Source: an uncultured virus (IMG/VR IMGVR_UViG_3300032676_000987) (taxonomy: Duplodnaviria; Heunggongvirae; Uroviricota; Caudoviricetes). Taken from it: 64,000 nt of DNA. Position 1 is the first letter of the stretch. Each line of letters begins with the position of its first letter. This document shows, one piece after another, positions 48,908 through 57,599 of this stretch. The position numbers were made by a program, and so were the translations under genes. The stretch is from the IMG/VR virus record IMGVR_UViG_3300032676_000987. The stretch is one strand, 5' to 3'. The notes beneath the pieces were generated by a model, which saw only the letters and a program-made list of their open reading frames with translations, did not search any database and had not been told where the DNA came from.

Positions 48908-49165
48908 ATGTCTAGAGTATTCAACACTGACGCAAAGATTAAGTTGACCCAACTGGTTAACGAGGGCTTAGGTGTCCTACAAGAAATTGAAACTCTTAAT
49001 GAAGGTCTAAACGACACCATTAAGGCAATCGCAGAAGAACTAGAAATAAAGCCAGCCATTCTTAAGAAGGCTATCAAGGTTGCACAGAAGCAGCGCCTCG
49101 CACAAACTAACGAGGAAAATGAGGAACTCAATACCATTTTGGAGACTGTTGGTCGAGCTAATTAA
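48908..49165 (+). CDS. Small dsDNA-binding protein (T4 DsbA/GapR-like)
   Basis: EIETLNEGLNDTIKAIAEELEIKPAILKKAIK helical pattern. Confidence 0.55.
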   Translation: MSRVFNTDAKIKLTQLVNEGLGVLQEIETLNEGLNDTIKAIAEELEIKPAILKKAIKVAQKQRLAQTNEENEELNTILETVGRAN

Positions 49166-50844
49166 TGGCATATGTCGATGCAGTATTAGATTCCAACGCA
49201 GATCGAATCCACGTTGTAGAACGTACTCCTGAAGGTAAACGTGCATACAAAGAGTTCCCTACGAACTACGTAATGTACTATGCTGATCCTAAAGGAAAGT
49301 ATCGTTCTATTTACGGTGATCCGCTGTCTCGGTTCTCTACTCGTAAACGTAGCGAATTCGAGAAGGAACGCAGAATACATAGTAACAAAAAACTATTTGA
49401 GAGCGACGTTAACGTAGTATTTAGGTGTTTGGCTGATAACTACCTTAATGCTGAACCACCAAAGCTTCATACTTGCTTTTTCGACATTGAAGTGGACTTT
49501 GATCCTGAGCGAGGATTTAGTCCTACTAGTGATCCGTTCAATCCAGTAACTGCAATCTCAATGTATCTAGATTGGCTTGATCAACTGATTACGTTGGTCA
49601 TGCCACCTAAGCACATGACAGATGAAACTGCGCAAGAGTTAACTAAAGATTTTCCAAACTGCTTTCTGTTTCGTTCTGAAATAGAGATGTTTGAAACCTT
49701 CTTTGAGTTGATCGAAGATGCTGACATTCTAACTGGCTGGAACTCAGAGGGATACGACATTCCGTATACGGTTAATCGCGTTACTAGAATCATGTCTAAA
49801 AACGATACTCGTAAGTTTTGTCTGCTGGGGAAACTCCCTAAGACTCGTACCTATGAACGTTTCGGCAAGGAAGAAGAAACATACGATCTAGTTGGTAGAA
49901 TTCATATGGACTACCTTCAACTGTATAAGAAGTACAACTACGAGTCTCGTCATAGTTATTCTCTTGATGCTATCGGTGAGATGGAAGTAGGTGAACGTAA
50001 AACTCAGTACGAAGGCAGTTTGGATCAGTTATACAATCAGGACTTTAAAACGTTCGTGGAGTATAACAGACAAGACACGATGCTTATGGTTAAAATTCAC
50101 AATAAGCTAAAGTTCCTTGATCTTGCTAACGCACTAGCACACGAGAATAGCGTACTTCTTCCGACAGTTATGGGTTCGGTGCAGATGATCGAAATGGCTA
50201 TCTTCAATGAAGCTCACGCACGTGGAATGATCGTACCTAACAAGAAGCCCAAAGAAGATACTGGGTTTCCGGCAGCTGGTGCGTTTGTTGCTATTCCTAA
50301 ACAAGGAATGCACGAATATCCTGGTGCAGTTGACATCAACTCTCTGTATCCGTCTGACATTCGAGCGCTGAACATGTCTCCGGAAACCATCATAGGTCAA
50401 GTTCGTCAAACACTGACTGACCAATACATGCACGAAAAGAGCATGAGATTGGCTTCTGAAAAGAAGAACAAGAAGAAGAAAAAGTTCGGAGATGACAGCG
50501 AGGAAGAAGGCGTCATTGGTGCAATTCTGTGGGAAGGATTGTTTGGCTCAATTGAGTATACAGCAATCATGAATCAAGAACGCGGAACTACCCTTTGGAT
50601 AGACTATGAAGATGGTAGAAGTGTACAAATGTCTGCTGCTGAAATTTGGAAGATGATCTTCGACAGTAACAGACCATGGATCCTTTCAGCAAATGGTACC
50701 ATCTTTACTTACGAAAAAGAAGGAGTGATTCCAGGACTACTTTCTCGGTGGTATACTGAACGTAAAAAACTTCAGAAAAAACAATACGCAGTTAGAGAAA
50801 TACTCTATGGTAAATCTTTACCTGATGATTTTTTTACCGATTGA
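49165..50844 (+). CDS. polB: Family B DNA polymerase, N-terminal part (exonuclease, motif A and first fingers helix)
   Basis: ExoI FFDIEV, ExoII GWNSEGYDIPY, ExoIII YNRQD, motif A DINSLYPS, GVIPGLL..WY.ERK. Confidence 0.9.
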   Translation: MAYVDAVLDSNADRIHVVERTPEGKRAYKEFPTNYVMYYADPKGKYRSIYGDPLSRFSTRKRSEFEKERRIHSNKKLFESDVNVVFRCLADNYLNAEPPKLHTCFFDIEVDFDPERGFSPTSDPFNPVTAISMYLDWLDQLITLVMPPKHMTDETAQELTKDFPNCFLFRSEIEMFETFFELIEDADILTGWNSEGYDIPYTVNRVTRIMSKNDTRKFCLLGKLPKTRTYERFGKEEETYDLVGRIHMDYLQLYKKYNYESRHSYSLDAIGEMEVGERKTQYEGSLDQLYNQDFKTFVEYNRQDTMLMVKIHNKLKFLDLANALAHENSVLLPTVMGSVQMIEMAIFNEAHARGMIVPNKKPKEDTGFPAAGAFVAIPKQGMHEYPGAVDINSLYPSDIRALNMSPETIIGQVRQTLTDQYMHEKSMRLASEKKNKKKKKFGDDSEEEGVIGAILWEGLFGSIEYTAIMNQERGTTLWIDYEDGRSVQMSAAEIWKMIFDSNRPWILSANGTIFTYEKEGVIPGLLSRWYTERKKLQKKQYAVREILYGKSLPDDFFTD

Positions 50845-51704
50845 ATCCTACTTTCCATTATGCCATTAGTATGCGAAATGATTGCATCCTTGCTGCCGAA
50901 GATAAAGGAGAAATCAAGGTTAGTGTCTGATAAGCGCAATATTGTATGTCCGCTTGCCAATGCCACGTTATTTTTTATTAAATCTCGATTTATTTGTCTT
51001 TTAGATGTGTGCCAATATTCACCATCAACTTCTACTAGTAAATTTAGATTTGGTAATAAGAAATCAAATAACCAACTACCCTTTTCAGTATGTATAGGAT
51101 GCTGATGAATGTACAATATATCATTATTCTTGCAAAATTCAATAAACGACAATTCAATAGAAGTATGTTTTTTAGGAGTATCGTTCTTAGACATGAATTC
51201 TACTCGTTTTTTACTCCTATTGCGTCGTTGGTTATCTGATAGATCAAGCTTTTTACCCTTATTTCCGGAGCCGCCTAACCCAATGGTATTTCCTATCATT
51301 TTAGTAGACTGTTTGGCTCTTCTCTCCGCAGTCCACGGTTTCTGTTTCCATCCATTGGCTATTCTCTCTTCCATATTAATCTTGCTGACAACCTTCATGT
51401 ATTCTTTATGTTCAGGTGTGTGGGTTCCCCAAGATACTCCGGTTCGTGCGGTTGATAATTTTTGTTTATGTTCCTCTGTTTTTCGTTTACCAGTTAATGC
51501 GTTTCTTACTTTTTCTACACTAACTGGATCATGCATTGGGTTGTTATCTCTCGCGTGTTTTCCGTATGCATGCCTTAGCTCATCAGAAAATAAAACAGAT
51601 CCTGGAAATTGCGCTAAGTATTCAGCCGTAGTTATATTGTGAGTTTTTAAATGACTACTAGTCACTCGTTTCATTTCTTTGTTACAAATAGCACAATCCA
51701 CCAT
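50805..51704 (-). mobile_element. Antisense free-standing endonuclease (Vsr/DUF559-like PD-(D/E)xK with Zn-finger and NUMOD3-like N-terminus) inserted in the polymerase gene
   Basis: TSIE...FDF....LLVEVDGEYWH....RDLIKN....GHTILRL; CAIC...HLKTH; H.EEHK.K.S; own late promoter and AAAGGAG RBS. Confidence 0.8.
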
Positions 51705-51758
51705 ATACGACTCTCCTTTAAAAAAGCACCATATGTATTTATCTTATAGAGCAAAAAT

Positions 51759-53003
51759 ATGAATCTAACGAAAATTATATTGGAATACGATACTAATAAA
51801 GTGAATGATTTTATTCAAAACAAAGACAAAATTGGTCTTGTTGAATACATAACTGGTTTCGGATTAGAAATACGAGACCGCTCCATTCATCCAATGGAAG
51901 CATATAAATCAGTTTGGGGGTTAGCAATGGAGTATTGGGACAAACGACAGTTAGTAAAAAAAATTCTCTTGAACTCTACATATGGATCCATTTTGAACGA
52001 ATATTGCAGGTTTTATGATAAGCGGATCGGACAGTCAGTTACTTTGTCTGGTCGTCAAATTGTTAGGCACATGATGAGCCAGATCAATGAAATCATTGCA
52101 GGTGAATACACTCACGAAGGTGAGGCGATCATCTACGGTGATACTGACTCCTGCTACTTCACTGCATATTCTATATTAAAAGATAGAATCGAACAAGGTG
52201 AAATAGAATGGAACAAGGAAGTTTGCATCGAACTGTACGACAACATCGCAGAGCAAACTAACGCTAGCTTTCCTGCTTTCATGGAGAAAGCGTTCCATTG
52301 TCCCCGCAAGAACGGTGAGGTCATCAAAGCTGGTAGAGAATTGATCGGTGATCGTTCTATCTTTATTACAAAGAAGCGTTACGCAATCAACATCTTCGAC
52401 AAAGAAGGTAAACGCAAGGATAAGGAAGGTAAATTAGGTGAAATCAAAGCTATGGGTCTAGACCTAAAGCGTGCAGATACACCTAAGTACGTTCAGGAAT
52501 TTCTTATGGAAATTCTTTGTATGGTAATTCAAGAGGGTAAGGGCCGAGACGAAGTGATCGAAAAGATCAAAGAGTTTAAAAGAAAGCTTTCAGAACAAGA
52601 CAGTTGGACTAAGGGTTCACCTAAATCAGTTAATAATTTGACAAATCATACCATTAAGTATGAGAGAACCGGTAAGTGCAGTGTTGGTCATGCTAAGGCC
52701 GCCATTCACTACAATCAACTGCGTAAGATGAATAGCGACCAGTACAGCCAAAAAATTGTCGACGGCATGAAGGTTGTGGTGTGTACACTAAAATCAAATC
52801 CCTTAGGTATTACTTCAATCGCATATCCCACCGATGAATTACGACTTCCAAAATGGTTCCTAGAACTACCATTCGATGATCTTGATATGGAACGTAAACT
52901 AGTGGATGAAAAGATAGACAACCTGTTAGGTGTGTTAGATTGGAAAATCAGATATGACACCAATACTAATAGTACATTTAGTTCGTTGTTTACTTTCGGC
53001 TAA
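51759..53003 (+). CDS. polB: Family B DNA polymerase, C-terminal part (motifs B and C, thumb)
   Basis: KRQLVKKILLNSTYG (motif B), SVTLSGR, YGDTDS (motif C), KKRYA, KAMGL. Confidence 0.9.
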   Translation: MNLTKIILEYDTNKVNDFIQNKDKIGLVEYITGFGLEIRDRSIHPMEAYKSVWGLAMEYWDKRQLVKKILLNSTYGSILNEYCRFYDKRIGQSVTLSGRQIVRHMMSQINEIIAGEYTHEGEAIIYGDTDSCYFTAYSILKDRIEQGEIEWNKEVCIELYDNIAEQTNASFPAFMEKAFHCPRKNGEVIKAGRELIGDRSIFITKKRYAINIFDKEGKRKDKEGKLGEIKAMGLDLKRADTPKYVQEFLMEILCMVIQEGKGRDEVIEKIKEFKRKLSEQDSWTKGSPKSVNNLTNHTIKYERTGKCSVGHAKAAIHYNQLRKMNSDQYSQKIVDGMKVVVCTLKSNPLGITSIAYPTDELRLPKWFLELPFDDLDMERKLVDEKIDNLLGVLDWKIRYDTNTNSTFSSLFTFG

Positions 53004-53810: not shown

Positions 53811-54179
53811 ATGATTAAGAGCATCTACGGAGGACAGGGAATTATTGTTAATGGAGGGATGCCTTCGGTACCCTACATCAACATGAGCAACCAGAGTGCT
53901 GGCATGGTAAGATTTAACGGCACCATCCAATCATTGGAAGTAGATGACGGTTCTACTTGGTATGGTATTAATAATACTGCGAGCATGGAACTTTCTCCGG
54001 AAGTTGTATCGATCTTAGCTTGGGCAAGAAATAAACAGCAGGAAGAAAAAGACCTGCTTAATCTTTCTGAAACGAATGCTACTATCCGTGATCTGGTTGA
54101 TCAAATTAAAGAAAAACAAAAACAAATTGAAGTCGTTAAGATATTGATTAAAGAAGAAGCTAAACTTGGAACAAATTAA
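53811..54179 (+). CDS. Hypothetical protein
   Basis: GMVRFNG...LEVDDGSTW motif followed by a coiled coil. Confidence 0.6.
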   Translation: MIKSIYGGQGIIVNGGMPSVPYINMSNQSAGMVRFNGTIQSLEVDDGSTWYGINNTASMELSPEVVSILAWARNKQQEEKDLLNLSETNATIRDLVDQIKEKQKQIEVVKILIKEEAKLGTN

Positions 54180-55716
54180 CTTATCAAACGCACACCAGTC
54201 AGACTGGGCTTTGTTCCTGCCGGCAGTATCGTCATTTTTTATTGCTGGTTTAGGTAAACAACGTGAGGGTGAAAACTATTTTGATTCGGCTAGAATACCT
54301 GTTGGATTAAACGGTAATGTTGAAAAGCTAAATTTTCTGAACGAAAAAGAAGGACTGTACACTTACAAGTGGGGCCTGTATTCAGCTGGTCACGCTAATC
54401 TAGACATTACGAAGAATGATCACAATGAGAGCATCATTCGTAAGCGTGATCGTAAAAATACATTCATGTTAGGTGATTCTGGTGGATTCCAAATTCTAAA
54501 GTGTCAATGGCCCGCTGACTGGAAAGATCCTAACTGCCCGAAGGCCATGAAGAAACGCACTGAGGTTTTGAAGTGGATGGACGAGTACATGGACTACGGT
54601 ATGTGTCTCGACATTCCTTCACAGTCGCTTACTACATATCATATCAAAGACCCCAAAACGGGTAAGTCCGTGCACGGCATTCGAACCATTGAGGACGCTA
54701 TTGCTGCTACTCATATTAACAATGAGTATTTCATTGCTAATCGTGATGGCCGTTGTAAGTTTCTAAACGTTCTACAAGGACGTAATCATAAACAGTCTGA
54801 TGATTGGTATGAAGAAATGAAGAAGTATTGCGATCCTAATATTTACCCAGACAATCATTTCAACGGATGGGCGTTTGGTGGTCAAACAAAGATCGACGTG
54901 CATCTGATGCTAAAGCGTATGGTTAACATCATTCATGATGGTCTGCTTGAGCCAGGCAAACATGATCTTATTCACTGTTTGGGTACTTCTATTCTAGAAT
55001 ACGCTATTTTGTTCACCGATATTCAAAGAGCAATACGCAAGTATCACAATCCAAATTTGCAAATCACGTTTGATTGTGCGTCTCCATTCTACGCGGCCGC
55101 AAAGGGGCTTGCGTATAACAACAATACGTTTAGACATAACACGAAGTGGACGTATTCGATGGAAAAAACTGCTGAAAACAAAAATTATGCGACTGATACT
55201 CGCAAGTTCAAAGATGCGGTTTTGGAAGACGGCATCCATAAAGTGTTTAGTGATAGCCCTGTAACTGATATAATGATGGTTAAGGATCTCTGTTACAGAG
55301 GACCAGGCTTTCTGGGGCAACACGGCAAAGAAACGAAGACCAGCTGGGACACTCTTAGTTATACATTGATGCAAGCACATAACGTATATCGGCACATTTA
55401 TGCGGTACAAGAAGCCAATCGTAAATCAGACTCGGGTATTAATCCTAAAATGGTTTTGGACAAGTTTGATGGTACCACATTCGGTGATCTTATTGATAAG
55501 ATTTTTTCTCTAAAGGATCGTGAGAAAAGCCTTGCAATGATTGATCAATATAATCTATTCTGGCAGCAGATGAAGGCCGGACAAGGGTTTTCCGGAAAAA
55601 GGGCTACAAATGCTCTTTCAAAGTTTGAGGAGTGTTTTACTATAGAAGAACCTGATCCTGAAATCGAAGAAGTTGTTGAAGATAGCGATGACGCTATGTT
55701 AGAAGTTTTAGAATAG
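54166..55716 (+). CDS. dpdA: DpdA/TGT-family 7-deazaguanine DNA transglycosylase
   Basis: LGDSGGFQ, MCLDIP, VLQG, GWAFGG, IHCLG, TFDCASP; clustered with folE/queD/queE. Confidence 0.8.
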   Translation: MEQINLSNAHQSDWALFLPAVSSFFIAGLGKQREGENYFDSARIPVGLNGNVEKLNFLNEKEGLYTYKWGLYSAGHANLDITKNDHNESIIRKRDRKNTFMLGDSGGFQILKCQWPADWKDPNCPKAMKKRTEVLKWMDEYMDYGMCLDIPSQSLTTYHIKDPKTGKSVHGIRTIEDAIAATHINNEYFIANRDGRCKFLNVLQGRNHKQSDDWYEEMKKYCDPNIYPDNHFNGWAFGGQTKIDVHLMLKRMVNIIHDGLLEPGKHDLIHCLGTSILEYAILFTDIQRAIRKYHNPNLQITFDCASPFYAAAKGLAYNNNTFRHNTKWTYSMEKTAENKNYATDTRKFKDAVLEDGIHKVFSDSPVTDIMMVKDLCYRGPGFLGQHGKETKTSWDTLSYTLMQAHNVYRHIYAVQEANRKSDSGINPKMVLDKFDGTTFGDLIDKIFSLKDREKSLAMIDQYNLFWQQMKAGQGFSGKRATNALSKFEECFTIEEPDPEIEEVVEDSDDAMLEVLE

Positions 55717-55984: not shown

Positions 55985-56431
55985 ATGAATACTAATAATT
56001 TACCCGAACAAGCTATTCAGGCTCTAGCCGATCAACGAAATAGAATCTCCGCAAGGGCAAAGCGTAAAGTGTGGGTGACCTTTCAACGCGAAGGCATTCA
56101 TAGGTATCCTGCTGCTGAAGACGATCCCAACCTTAAGACTGGCGATGAATATGACGTTAGTTTTCTGGCACATCCTCACCGACATATCTTTCATTTTAAG
56201 GTGGCGATTGCGGTAGAGCATTCTAACCGAGCAATTGAATTTATACAATTCAAGCGTTGGTTGGAAAGTTTATACGGTAACGGCGTTTTGCAATTAGATT
56301 ATAAATCTTGCGAAATGATAGCAGAAGATTTATATGAAGTTATTGCGTCTAAATATCCTAACAGATATATTCAAATATCAGTGAGTGAAGACGGAGAAAA
56401 TGGAGCAGAACTAACTTTTACCACAGCATAA
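55985..56431 (+). CDS. dpdL: QueD-paralog T-fold protein, DpdL-like (putative CDG decarboxylase)
   Basis: LAHPHRHIF fits the LxxxHRHxF motif I recall for DpdL; SCEMIA and VSEDGENGA T-fold motifs; a separate canonical queD is present. Confidence 0.6.
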   Translation: MNTNNLPEQAIQALADQRNRISARAKRKVWVTFQREGIHRYPAAEDDPNLKTGDEYDVSFLAHPHRHIFHFKVAIAVEHSNRAIEFIQFKRWLESLYGNGVLQLDYKSCEMIAEDLYEVIASKYPNRYIQISVSEDGENGAELTFTTA

Positions 56432-57138
56432 AGTTCTTCTTTAGTGATGGAACATTTTGTCCGTTTTGATCTATTATCGCTTTTTAATAACAGTTCTAGA
56501 TTGGCAGCATGGCCTATAATTTCAGGTGGAATACTTTGTTTGAATCCCTCTGTAATGCTAAATCGGTGATCTAGTTCGTATTCATTTCCTCTTTTTAGAT
56601 TGTTCGGATTAATAATATGTTCTGCATACTTCCAGCTAGTATTAGTGAAATTAGTGACTTGCTCTCTATATAATTCCCATTCTGTCTTGAGTTCTTTCGG
56701 TATAGAAATTCCACGTTCTATTTTTGTCAGTGTAGCTTTTTGATATGACTCAGGTGATCTGTTTGATGCCCGCGATGATTGCATCTGTTTAGTATGAGAG
56801 GTATGTTTTTTATTGAACATCGGATTGCGTTCACCGGTATGTCCACCTCGTTGCTGCAAAGCATCAGAAATTTTCTTACCCTTTTCTTCTACCCAGTTAG
56901 GATCAGTATGCAGTTGCTGAAGTTTCTTATTCCCAACCTCACTCATCTTCTTCATGTGGACTCTCCTTTCCTCAGGAGTAATGTTTTTTTTCCTAGAAGA
57001 TTCTGCCTTTGCGATGAAGCCCGGACATTGAGTAATTTTTTCTACACAACGGAAAACCTTAGAATTTACACTTATCCATTTTGCTTGATTCCCGCAGTAT
57101 ACGCAAGTATAATTATGTTGCTCTTGAAGTTTAGGCAT
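56371..57138 (-). mobile_element. Antisense free-standing HNH-type endonuclease inserted at the 3' end of the dpdL-like gene
   Basis: YELDHRFSI..GF......IIGH.ANLELL...DNRSK; GERNPMF.KKH NUMOD3-like motif; N-terminal CxxC; own late promoter. Confidence 0.8.
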
Positions 57139-57177
57139 AGTTCAATCTTTCTTTCATCATTGTATTTATGCCTAAAC
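57129..57177 (-). promoter_or_regulatory. 11-bp inverted repeat pairing the late promoter region with the endonuclease start codon
   Basis: GTTTAGGCATA (57129-57139) and TATGCCTAAAC (57167-57177). Confidence 0.7.
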
Positions 57178-57210
57178 CTTTAAAGGAGACCAGTATGAGA
57201 TAAAATTTTT

Positions 57211-57309
57211 AACCCAAATCGTGATATTGAAATTACCGTTTCAGAAGACGGTGAAAACGGTGCCACGATTTTCTATAATACTACTCAATCTCAACAACTC
57301 ACCATCTAA
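57211..57309 (+). pseudogene. Orphaned second copy of the dpdL-like 3' end
   Basis: Translates to NPNRDIEITVSEDGENGATIFYNTTQSQQLTI*, versus YPNRYIQISVSEDGENGAELTFTTA* at 56354-56431; no in-frame start. Confidence 0.85.
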
Positions 57310-57319
57310 GGAACTAAAA

Positions 57320-57553
57320 ATGGCAAAGCTCGACAATAAGTCTATCGTCAATCAAATCTTTGAAGATTTGGAGAACTACCGTATTTTCTGTAGAGACTAC
57401 GGTTATCGATATGATGAGCGAGATTTATATAACAACAAGAGCTATATCTATCGGCAGTACCAAAAGACAGTTGCAAGCAAACCTGCAAAGAATCAATGGG
57501 AAATCGATGCAGAGAAGTTTAAGGAACGTGAACTTCTTAATACCCGTCGATAA
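57320..57553 (+). CDS. Hypothetical protein
   Basis: AAGGA RBS, ATG 57320; IFEDLE.YR.FCRDYG..YDE.DLY. Confidence 0.7.
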   Translation: MAKLDNKSIVNQIFEDLENYRIFCRDYGYRYDERDLYNNKSYIYRQYQKTVASKPAKNQWEIDAEKFKERELLNTRR

Positions 57554-57567
57554 AGTATCGACATACA

Positions 57568-57599
57568 GTAACGGGTGGTTAACCACCCGTTACCTTTTT
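57568..57599 (+). terminator. Intrinsic terminator
   Basis: Perfect 26-nt palindrome GTAACGGGTGGTTAACCACCCGTTAC followed by CTTTTT. Confidence 0.75.

What the first reader, a model, noticed from the sequence alone, without database searches (positions are those of the whole stretch)
56354..57309. Endonuclease insertion flanked by two recoded copies of its target gene's 3' end
Seen: the dpdL-like gene ends PNRYIQISVSEDGENGA-ELTFTTA* (56357-56431), overlapping the antisense HNH gene. On the far side of the HNH gene lies PNRDIEITVSEDGENGA-TIFYNTTQSQQLTI* (57214-57309). That is 14 of 17 identical residues, with most shared codons differing synonymously. This second copy abuts the next gene's RBS and is preceded by AAAGGAG-ATG-AGA-TAA, a start that is out of frame. 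Inference: the downstream copy is the original terminus. The mobile cassette brought a diverged replacement terminus that keeps the host gene functional and immune to re-cutting, so the insertion is harmless without splicing.
Basis: partly seen in the sequence, partly recalled or inferred. Interest (0 to 1): 0.78.

Follow-up and report, generated by a model that had tools for sequence, protein, structure and literature searches.

The report
Homing nuclease replaces phage gene half
A selfish DNA-cutting gene in an uncultured phage travels with a foreign copy of the last 71 codons of its neighbouring gene and leaves the old gene end stranded behind it, a splicing-free kind of homing known from yeast and fungal mitochondria.

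Summary
Observation confirmed: 14/17 residues, 34/51 nt. The downstream copy is the native end: 60 of 63 insert-free dpdL alleles end that way, none like the upstream copy. The interpretation needs correcting. The replacement is not 25 recoded codons but about 71, starting at codon 78 (56216). In 6 nuclease-bearing alleles with close insert-free relatives, identity falls from 0.92 to 0.52 exactly there (control 0.95). The conserved H-N-D-R-D codons (56219-56233) are altered in 29 of 29 distinct main-family nuclease-bearing alleles, and Asp83 is kept in 1 of 29 against 62 of 63 insert-free. The cut site is therefore most likely there, about 130 nt upstream of the duplicated stretch. The synonymous differences between the two copies lie within ordinary allele divergence. 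Remnants occur in 22 of 60 related loci and, in 12 examined, vary like working genes, which suggests they are renewed as the right-hand homology arm, as in yeast WHO elements. Cleavage was not tested. This scan has reported the same layout on other phage genomes with other target genes. Verdict: a new phage variant of a known kind, with a target window mapped to a few codons.

The parts
55985..56431 (+). dpdL-like gene (148 aa), intact but chimeric
   Evidence: 35% identical to phiST CGPG_00067, E 7e-18 pairwise, which PMC10516641 names DpdL; LxxxHRHxF motif present; phrog_17812 E 1.6e-31
55985..56215 (+). resident 5' part of the gene (codons 1-77)
   Evidence: 11 of its 14 nearest relatives are insert-free alleles; junction inferred from sister loci
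56216..56431 (+). cassette-borne replacement 3' part (codons 78-148 plus stop)
   Evidence: 13 of its 14 nearest relatives are nuclease-bearing alleles; nuclease label needs 3 changes on the 3'-part tree against 15 on the 5'-part tree, 9 against 19 with the motif codons left out
56213..56233 (+). predicted recognition/cleavage window, here in its altered form (V-E-H-S-N-R-A; insert-free consensus V-F-H-N-D-R-D)
   Evidence: inferred, cleavage not tested
56357..56407 (+). upstream copy of the duplicated 17 codons; from 56371 also read antisense by the nuclease C-terminus
56371..57138 (-). free-standing HNH-like endonuclease gene (255 aa): Cys-rich N-terminus, NUMOD3, C-terminal D190-H191/N213/N222 domain
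   Evidence: Pfam NUMOD3 E 1.1e-4; invariant residues; fold searches weak but led by HNH nucleases
57127..57179 (-). possible 13-bp hairpin covering the nuclease start codon (arms 57167-57179 and 57127-57139); lineage-specific
   Evidence: -19.3 kcal/mol, z -2.79, 1 of 200 shuffles as good; AUG paired to the 5' arm in only 6 of 49 family leaders
57163..57169 (-). ATAAATA late-promoter-like motif; right edge of the conserved cassette
   Evidence: TATTTA 21-25 nt from the start in 65 of 66 distinct leaders; same motif before the other antisense nuclease at 51736-51742; promoter role inferred from the recalled T4 late consensus
57182..57203 (+). orphan RBS-ATG-AGA-TAA, probably the start of the donor's next gene
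   Evidence: remnant-free nuclease loci (L002, L134, L211) run TATTTATGCC...TTTAAAGGA...ATG into the next gene at this place; inference
57214..57309 (+). displaced native 3' end (31 codons plus stop, no start)
   Evidence: closer than the upstream copy to 55 of 63 insert-free alleles; up to 86% identical over 72 nt, similarity ends at 57213/57214
57320..57553 (+). conserved next gene (77 aa, unknown function)
   Evidence: within 100 nt of the dpdL stop in 55 of 63 insert-free loci

Best explanation
The mobile unit is about 955 bp (56216-57169): the 3' half of a cleavage-resistant dpdL allele, an antisense HNH-like nuclease gene and its own late-promoter-like leader. In a mixed infection the nuclease cuts or nicks the insert-free dpdL of a related phage within codons 77-83 (inferred). 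Repair joins the recipient's first 77 codons to the donor's last 71 (chimerism shown in sister loci), which restores a full ORF and removes the site. On the right, the join is made in the next gene (no remnant), or in or onto the recipient's own 3' end, which is left stranded as the remnant. In this lineage the right join looks illegitimate, just past the start of the donor's next gene (inferred). Once present, a remnant can serve as the right homology arm and be renewed from each new recipient, as proposed for yeast WHO elements (supported in sister loci, not shown for this lineage).
For: Native-type remnant. Close relatives of the nuclease sit antisense behind a dpdL-like gene in 90 loci, 40 distinct alleles. 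Sharp breakpoint at codon 77/78 in 6 of 6 nuclease alleles with an insert-free relative of at least 85% identity: mean 0.92 before, 0.52 at codons 78-84, against 0.93 and 0.95 in 41 insert-free control pairs. Asp83 in 62 of 63 insert-free against 1 of 29 nuclease-bearing main-family alleles, replaced by Ala, Glu, Ser or Cys; HNDRD in 53 of 63 against 0 of 29. Replication set fetched through the neighbour gene: 31 of 31 new insert-free alleles keep R-D and 29 of 31 keep HNDRD. L213 differs from its insert-free relative at codons 77-84 essentially only by Asp83Cys. An unrelated T5orf172 nuclease at the same locus (L040/L042) keeps HNDRD and breaks at about codon 108 instead. Internally deleted nuclease scars lie behind altered alleles (L235, L238/L244, L250/L251). 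In 12 remnants sharing two junction types, 17 of 23 variable sites are third positions (p 8e-5), and the nuclease 5' ends are more alike (means 0.97, 0.96) than the remnants (0.91, 0.87).
Against: No cleavage or homing assay. No close insert-free relative of this phage was found (best 76% in the 5' part), so its junction is inferred from sister loci. The 29 alleles are not independent: 18 of 25 form one 3'-part clade. L211, and L181 (left out of the count), keep Asp83 with H-S-N-R-D; L317 has the same patch without a nuclease. The HLDRELEF subfamily is mostly nuclease-free (9 with, 34 without, of 43 distinct alleles with at least 800 nt downstream), so its 11 nuclease-bearing alleles are no evidence of selected immunity. 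Asp114 is also changed in 23 of 29. HNH assignment rests on motif and weak fold matches (best Z 5.1, rmsd 8.9, 72 aligned). Ranking of relatives by the 5' part and by the remnant did not correlate (rho 0.11, p 0.38).
Confidence: 0.75

Rival explanations
1. One reading: the target is the duplicated 17-codon stretch and synonymous recoding of the upstream copy gives immunity.
For: The upstream copy is unusual against insert-free alleles (27% identical codons among shared residues, remnant 53%). One third position (56365, Arg127) is T in 53 of 63 insert-free but 2 of 29 nuclease alleles. A site spanning 57213/57214 would be destroyed in this remnant.
Against: Native-type copies of this stretch, mostly with the CGT codon, persist in nuclease genomes, two reaching back to LDxKSCEM (L190, L210). 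The breakpoint lies 141 nt upstream. Divergence between the copies is within the range of ordinary alleles.
Confidence: 0.06
2. Same element, but the cut lies further 3', around S-C-E-M-x-x-D-D-L (codons 108-116); the codon-78 junction only marks where a long conversion tract usually ends.
For: Asp114 is kept in 62 of 63 insert-free and 6 of 29 nuclease alleles; the two longest remnants have this motif altered.
Against: 6 nuclease alleles keep xDDL while none keeps HNDRD; the left junction falls at the same codon in 6 of 6 informative pairs instead of being scattered between codons 78 and 110.
Confidence: 0.08
3. The nuclease and a divergent dpdL 3' half are a linked module spread by ordinary recombination, with no directed cutting of dpdL; the altered motif is hitch-hiking ancestry.
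For: Most altered alleles share one origin; activity untested; divergent subfamilies exist without the nuclease.
Against: Four different substitutions at one otherwise near-invariant codon; a minimal single-codon change in L213; a codon-precise left junction in several backgrounds; decay scars typical of homing cycles; a second nuclease family with its own breakpoint.
Confidence: 0.08
4. Local tandem duplication of the gene end followed by drift, with the nuclease inserted between the copies.
For: Two similar copies 857 nt apart.
Against: The upstream 3' half groups with nuclease alleles of other phages, the remnant with insert-free alleles; in L175, L190, L210 and L361 the upstream gene and the remnant belong to different subfamilies.
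Confidence: 0.03

Closest known systems
WHO homing elements at FBA1 of Torulaspora/Lachancea yeasts (Coughlan et al. 2020, PMC7282813; passages read)
   Same: Nuclease gene downstream of an intact host gene; the unit is nuclease plus resistance-conferring 3' region; chimeric gene with discordant 5'/3' trees; old 3' end left downstream and used as homology; left conversion boundary close to the cut; stacked fragments (here L176).
   Different: Phage, HNH-like and antisense instead of a LAGLIDADG intein-zinc finger protein. Remnants here start well downstream of the predicted cut, at variable points, and are absent in 38 of 60 loci; many WHO fragments start near the cut. Cleavage was shown for Who6, not here.
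Mobile endonuclease ORFs with a foreign C-terminus in fungal mitochondria: Allomyces macrogynus atp6, Glomus atp6/atp9/cox2/nad3 (PMC3630166; passages read)
   Same: Foreign C-terminus fused in frame, nuclease ORF, native C-terminus displaced downstream and closer to relatives.
   Different: Organelle; nuclease ORF co-transcribed with the host gene there, antisense with its own leader here.
Intronless homing by free-standing T4 endonucleases, e.g. SegF, SegG, MobE (review PMC2988022; passages read)
   Same: Free-standing phage nuclease beside its target gene, cut site hundreds of bp from the nuclease gene, co-conversion of flanking DNA; late promoter and inhibitory hairpin described for several; segD is antisense.
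   Different: The review has no occurrence of 'duplicat': a displaced gene end used as a homology arm is not described there. Target here is dpdL.
DpdL, proposed CDG decarboxylase of the 7-deazaguanine pathway (Cui et al. 2023, PMC10516641; passages read)
   Same: Host gene is homologous to phiST CGPG_00067 and to an ACP17 protein (51.6%), has LxxxHRHxF, and lies near folE, queD and a radical-SAM (queE-like) gene.
   Different: Activity unproven even in that paper; no DpdA was identified here (negative against phiST CGPG_00065).

Membership tests
WHO-type 3'-replacement homing element (mechanism) | Nuclease gene downstream of an intact host gene whose 3' part has a separate history | tested here: met
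WHO-type 3'-replacement homing element (mechanism) | Displaced native 3' fragment downstream of the nuclease | tested here: met
   window; 22 of 60 related leaders, 0 of 63 controls
WHO-type 3'-replacement homing element (mechanism) | Fragment renewed from recipients (serves as homology arm) | tested here: inconclusive
   supported in 12 sister remnants; all copies of this lineage are identical, so not shown here
WHO-type 3'-replacement homing element (mechanism) | Allele-specific cleavage (sensitive versus resident resistant allele) | not testable with these tools
   only association and breakpoint evidence
WHO family (protein) | LAGLIDADG intein-like plus zinc-finger protein, FBA1 target | tested here: not met
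   Pfam gives NUMOD3 only; target is dpdL-like; motif is HNH-like
Free-standing phage homing endonuclease (intronless homing) | Not in an intron or intein; host ORF complete without splicing | tested here: met
   host ORF runs to its stop with all conserved motifs; nuclease is antisense
Free-standing phage homing endonuclease (intronless homing) | Patchy presence at a fixed locus with altered target allele in cis | tested here: met
Free-standing phage homing endonuclease (intronless homing) | Biased inheritance in mixed infection | not testable with these tools
   no cultured pair known; best match among deposited phage records under 60%
HNH (beta-beta-alpha-metal) nuclease | D-H, N, N/H catalytic motif conserved | tested here: met
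   H191, N213, N222 invariant and D190 nearly invariant in 18 aligned domains
HNH (beta-beta-alpha-metal) nuclease | Profile or fold match | tested here: inconclusive
   HNH_4 in 1 of 18 members, E 0.026; best fold 4h9d_A Z 5.1, rmsd 8.9, 72 aligned, followed by Cas9 HNH, BrxU, GVE2 HNH at Z 3.6-3.8; Foldseek no hit at E<=0.001
DpdL | Homology to phiST CGPG_00067 and LxxxHRHxF motif | tested here: met
DpdL | CDG decarboxylase activity | not testable with these tools
   proposed, not shown, in PMC10516641

The most novel reading that the evidence does not exclude
Phages have a WHO-like class of homing element in which the stranded gene end is a working, self-renewing homology arm. It lets an HNH nuclease home between phages whose dpdL genes are only about 75% alike, and its spread has forced a non-synonymous change of a near-invariant residue (Asp83) in a DNA-modification enzyme across many lineages. 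At least two unrelated nuclease families (HNH-like and T5orf172) use the same route at the same gene, with different cut windows.
Probability: 0.4. Interest if true: 0.7.

Novelty: new variant of a known kind. Interest (0 to 1): 0.5.

Why it matters
It shows at population scale how a free-standing nuclease can invade next to a conserved gene without splicing, and narrows the target of an uncharacterised nuclease family to about seven codons, so a cleavage assay with natural allele pairs can be set up at once. It warns that dpdL trees mix two histories (5' and 3' of codon 77). It links the yeast WHO and fungal mitochondrial gene-hybrid model to phage intronless homing. The principle itself is known, and this scan has met the layout repeatedly, which caps the surprise.

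Tried and rejected
No whole genome was held for this window. No close insert-free relative: neighbour-gene search and a remnant pattern search returned only copies of this phage above 69%; laying contigs of 4 runs showed no joint that skips the insertion (contigs drop rare variants, so this is not absence). No RNA holder listed. Group I intron or intein reading: not needed, the host ORF is complete and the nuclease is antisense; Rfam was not searched. Sigma-70 promoter scan: 4 sites, chance mean 4.8. Foldseek gave no match at E<=0.001; the full-length VIA search was dominated by a long helix. The upstream 516-aa protein did not match phiST CGPG_00065 by BLASTP or Pfam. Counting the 11 divergent-subfamily alleles as evidence of immunity was rejected. 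A family-wide translational hairpin was rejected (6 of 49). Rank correlation between 5' part and remnant was uninformative. Distant relatives of the C-terminal domain (L094-L128) showed no dpdL-like neighbour. Literature: searches (open-licence PMC and bioRxiv only) and term look-ups in PMC2988022, PMC10448857, PMC12724721 and PMC2993671 gave no description of a displaced, duplicated gene end beside a free-standing phage nuclease; subscription papers and all supplements were not seen, so this is limited.

Full report
1. Observation. The window region is a phage-type cluster with a split family-B polymerase, folE, queD and a radical-SAM gene. The host gene (55985-56431) is 35% identical to phiST CGPG_00067, which Cui et al. 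name DpdL, and it carries their LxxxHRHxF motif (PMC10516641, passages read). Its end PNRYIQISVSEDGENGA-ELTFTTA* and the copy PNRDIEITVSEDGENGA-TIFYNTTQSQQLTI* at 57214-57309 share 14 of 17 residues and 34 of 51 nt; 4 of 14 shared codons are identical; the next-best match in the window is 7/17. The antisense ORF 57138..56371 overlaps the last 61 nt of the host gene. The RBS-ATG-AGA-TAA at 57182-57203 is out of frame with the remnant. The nuclease and both ends are identical in five public contigs, and the stretch is contiguous in 4 of 4 runs laid (possibly the source, so not independent).

2. Which copy is native. The best 80 of 599 related loci were fetched. After leaving out 8 with under 800 nt downstream, 2 with another nuclease and 2 with this nuclease, 68 remained, 63 distinct. 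Of these 63, 60 end ENG[AC]x[IV]xY, 31 ENGATIxYN and none ENG[AC]xLxF; 50 have a 16-residue tail (remnant 15, upstream copy 8); 9 have natural tails of 7-10 residues, so the short replacement tail is plausibly harmless. 55 of 63 have the 57320-like gene within 100 nt. The remnant is closer than the upstream copy to 55 of 63, up to 86% over 72 nt, and the similarity stops at 57213/57214. The downstream copy is the native end.

3. The nuclease. It has a Cys-rich N-terminus, a NUMOD3 motif (E 1.1e-4) and a C-terminal domain with invariant H191, N213 and N222 and nearly invariant D190 in 18 aligned relatives. Profile support is weak (HNH_4 in 1 of 18, E 0.026). The domain model (pLDDT 90.7) matches the Gme HNH nicking endonuclease best (Z 5.1, rmsd 8.9, 72 aligned), then Cas9 HNH, BrxU and GVE2 HNH at Z 3.6-3.8; Foldseek on the full model found nothing at E<=0.001. 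I call it HNH-like. Close relatives lie antisense behind a dpdL-like gene in 90 loci, 40 distinct alleles. Nine loci with an N-terminal match had no dpdL hit in the DNA held, L220 has the nuclease upstream, and L181 (a second dpdL-like copy further on) was left out of the count. The cassette's right edge is a conserved leader with TATTTA in 65 of 66 distinct loci, ATAAATA on the nuclease strand at 57163-57169; the same motif precedes the window's other antisense nuclease. Its reading as a late promoter rests on the recalled T4 consensus.

4. The replacement is much longer than the duplicate. On a tree of the gene's 5' part the nuclease label needs 15 changes (shuffled mean 22.3); on the 3' part 3, with 18 of 25 alleles in one clade. 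With the motif codons left out the figures are 19 and 9 (quick trees). For the window allele, 11 of the 14 nearest 5' parts are insert-free and 13 of the 14 nearest 3' parts carry the nuclease. Six of the 29 main-family nuclease alleles have an insert-free relative at least 85% identical over codons 26-70. All six stay at 0.87-1.00 through codons 73-77 and fall to 0.43-0.57 at codons 78-84; 41 insert-free control pairs give 0.93 and 0.95. At base level identity runs through Val77 and breaks at codon 78. The window follows the same pattern against its nearest relatives, but these are only 76% identical, so its junction at 56215/56216 is inferred.

5. Where the target probably is. The strongest column in the gene is codon 83 (56231-56233): Asp in 62 of 63 insert-free alleles and 1 of 29 nuclease alleles, replaced by Ala, Glu, Ser or Cys. 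HNDRD is present in 53 of 63 and 0 of 29. In a second set fetched through the neighbour gene (79 loci; 11 skipped for lacking a usable dpdL or neighbour hit), all 31 new distinct insert-free alleles keep R-D and 29 keep HNDRD. L213 differs from its relative in this stretch essentially by Asp83Cys alone. Because recipients keep their own DNA up to codon 77 and all carry donor DNA from codon 78, a cut within codons 77-83 is the simplest reading; in the WHO experiments conversion ran only 5-14 bp leftwards of the cut (PMC7282813). An internal control: an unrelated T5orf172 nuclease at the same place (L040/L042) also has a remnant, keeps HNDRD and breaks near codon 108. Of 33 loci fetched by the E-H-x-[DN]-R-A pattern, those without an intact nuclease include deleted-nuclease scars (L235, L238/L244, L250/L251), one contig end (L222) and five with no trace (L225, L230, L232, L237, L240). 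Against this: the alleles are not independent; L211 and L181 keep Asp83 with HSNRD and L317 has that patch without a nuclease; Asp114 is changed in 23 of 29; and the HLDRELEF subfamily is mostly nuclease-free (9 with, 34 without), so I do not count its 11 alleles.

6. 'Recoding' and immunity. The 4/14 identical codons fall at about the 6th percentile, and 34/51 nt at the 22nd, of 712 insert-free pairs of similar protein identity. The upstream copy is a distant allele, partly constrained by the antisense frame. One third position (56365) does differ strongly between the groups, but remnants in nuclease genomes mostly keep the native codon. A native-type copy that stays in the genome cannot hold an intact site.

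7. The remnant. It is found in 22 of 60 distinct leader regions with at least 150 nt held (window included; L182 and L220 left out; lineages not independent) and in 0 of 63 controls. Remnants start at different points, from LDxKSCEM (L190, L210) to EDGENG (L175). In L175, L190, L210 and L361 the upstream gene is of the divergent subfamily and the remnant of the main one, so a whole foreign gene can come in. In 12 of these remnants, chosen because they share two junction types, 17 of 23 variable sites are third positions (binomial p 8e-5; sites share ancestry, so take it as rough) with no frame breaks, and the nuclease 5' ends are more alike than the remnants (0.97 against 0.91; 0.96 against 0.87); four loci have identical nuclease 5' ends and remnants only 83-91% alike. 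A dead fragment should not vary like a working gene; renewal from each recipient explains it. L176 carries two stacked remnants. For this lineage renewal is not shown. The orphan RBS-ATG matches, in position and sequence, the start of the next gene in remnant-free loci such as L002 and L211, which suggests that the first join here was made just inside the donor's next gene (inference).

8. Comparison. The mechanism matches the model for WHO elements at yeast FBA1 (PMC7282813, passages) and the gene hybrids of fungal mitochondria (PMC3630166, passages), and the distant cut site matches T4 intronless homing (PMC2988022, passages). It is not a WHO-family protein. I reached the mitochondrial comparison myself; the WHO comparison, and through it the renewal test, came from earlier scan notes, which also report the same layout on other phage genomes with other genes; I did not check those genomes. 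My searches of open-licence papers and term look-ups in four phage papers found no phage description; subscription papers and supplements were not seen.

9. Verdict. Shown: duplication, native remnant, chimeric gene, fixed locus, breakpoint in sister loci. Inferred: cleavage, exact cut, promoter, origin of the orphan start, renewal in this lineage. New variant of a known kind; interest 0.5.

Noticed in passing
window 49165-53003: The family-B DNA polymerase is in two ORFs (49165-50844, 51759-53003) with an antisense endonuclease-like gene (50805-51704; phrog_559, PvuRts1I-like N) between them, overlapping the first part's end and preceded by ATAAATA at 51736-51742. Recalls split gp43 of some T4-like phages (recalled).
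   Followed up: no
window 57127-57179 (- strand): A 13-bp hairpin would cover the nuclease start codon, with its 5' arm overlapping the promoter-like motif, as described for I-TevI, segB and Aeh1 mobE; seen in few family members (6 of 49).
   Followed up: partly
L040/L042 3357-4301: An unrelated DUF723/T5orf172 nuclease sits antisense at the same locus with the same remnant layout and a C-terminus read from the same antisense frame, but with a breakpoint near codon 108.
   Followed up: partly
L069 3371-4348 and related loci L153-L157, L169, L177, L183, L189: Up to about 1.3 kb of extra DNA (four short ORFs in L069) lies between the dpdL stop and the nuclease, so the cassette can carry passengers. 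L069 has a 29-nt deletion removing the promoter-like motif.
   Followed up: no
L235, L238/L244, L250/L251 just after the dpdL stop: Internally deleted nuclease genes, two types with a mutated leader motif, behind altered dpdL alleles: late stages of a homing cycle.
   Followed up: partly
L317 codons 77-90 of dpdL: Carries the same altered DNA patch as nuclease-bearing L211 but has a native tail and no nuclease: possible conversion of the cut region without transfer of the nuclease gene.
   Followed up: no
L176 downstream of the nuclease: Two stacked dpdL remnants separated by a truncated copy of the next gene.
   Followed up: partly
window 57568-57593: Perfect inverted repeat with a T-run after the 77-aa gene, terminator-like.
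   Followed up: no
window 54166-55716: Conserved 516-aa gene upstream of dpdL in many related loci with no Pfam or PHROG family; a candidate DpdA-like transglycosylase by position only, no match to phiST CGPG_00065.
   Followed up: partly
L028 3704-4537: A DUF723 protein with a related HNH-like C-terminal domain sits on the sense strand between the next gene and the glycosyltransferase-like gene, a different site in the same cluster.
   Followed up: no
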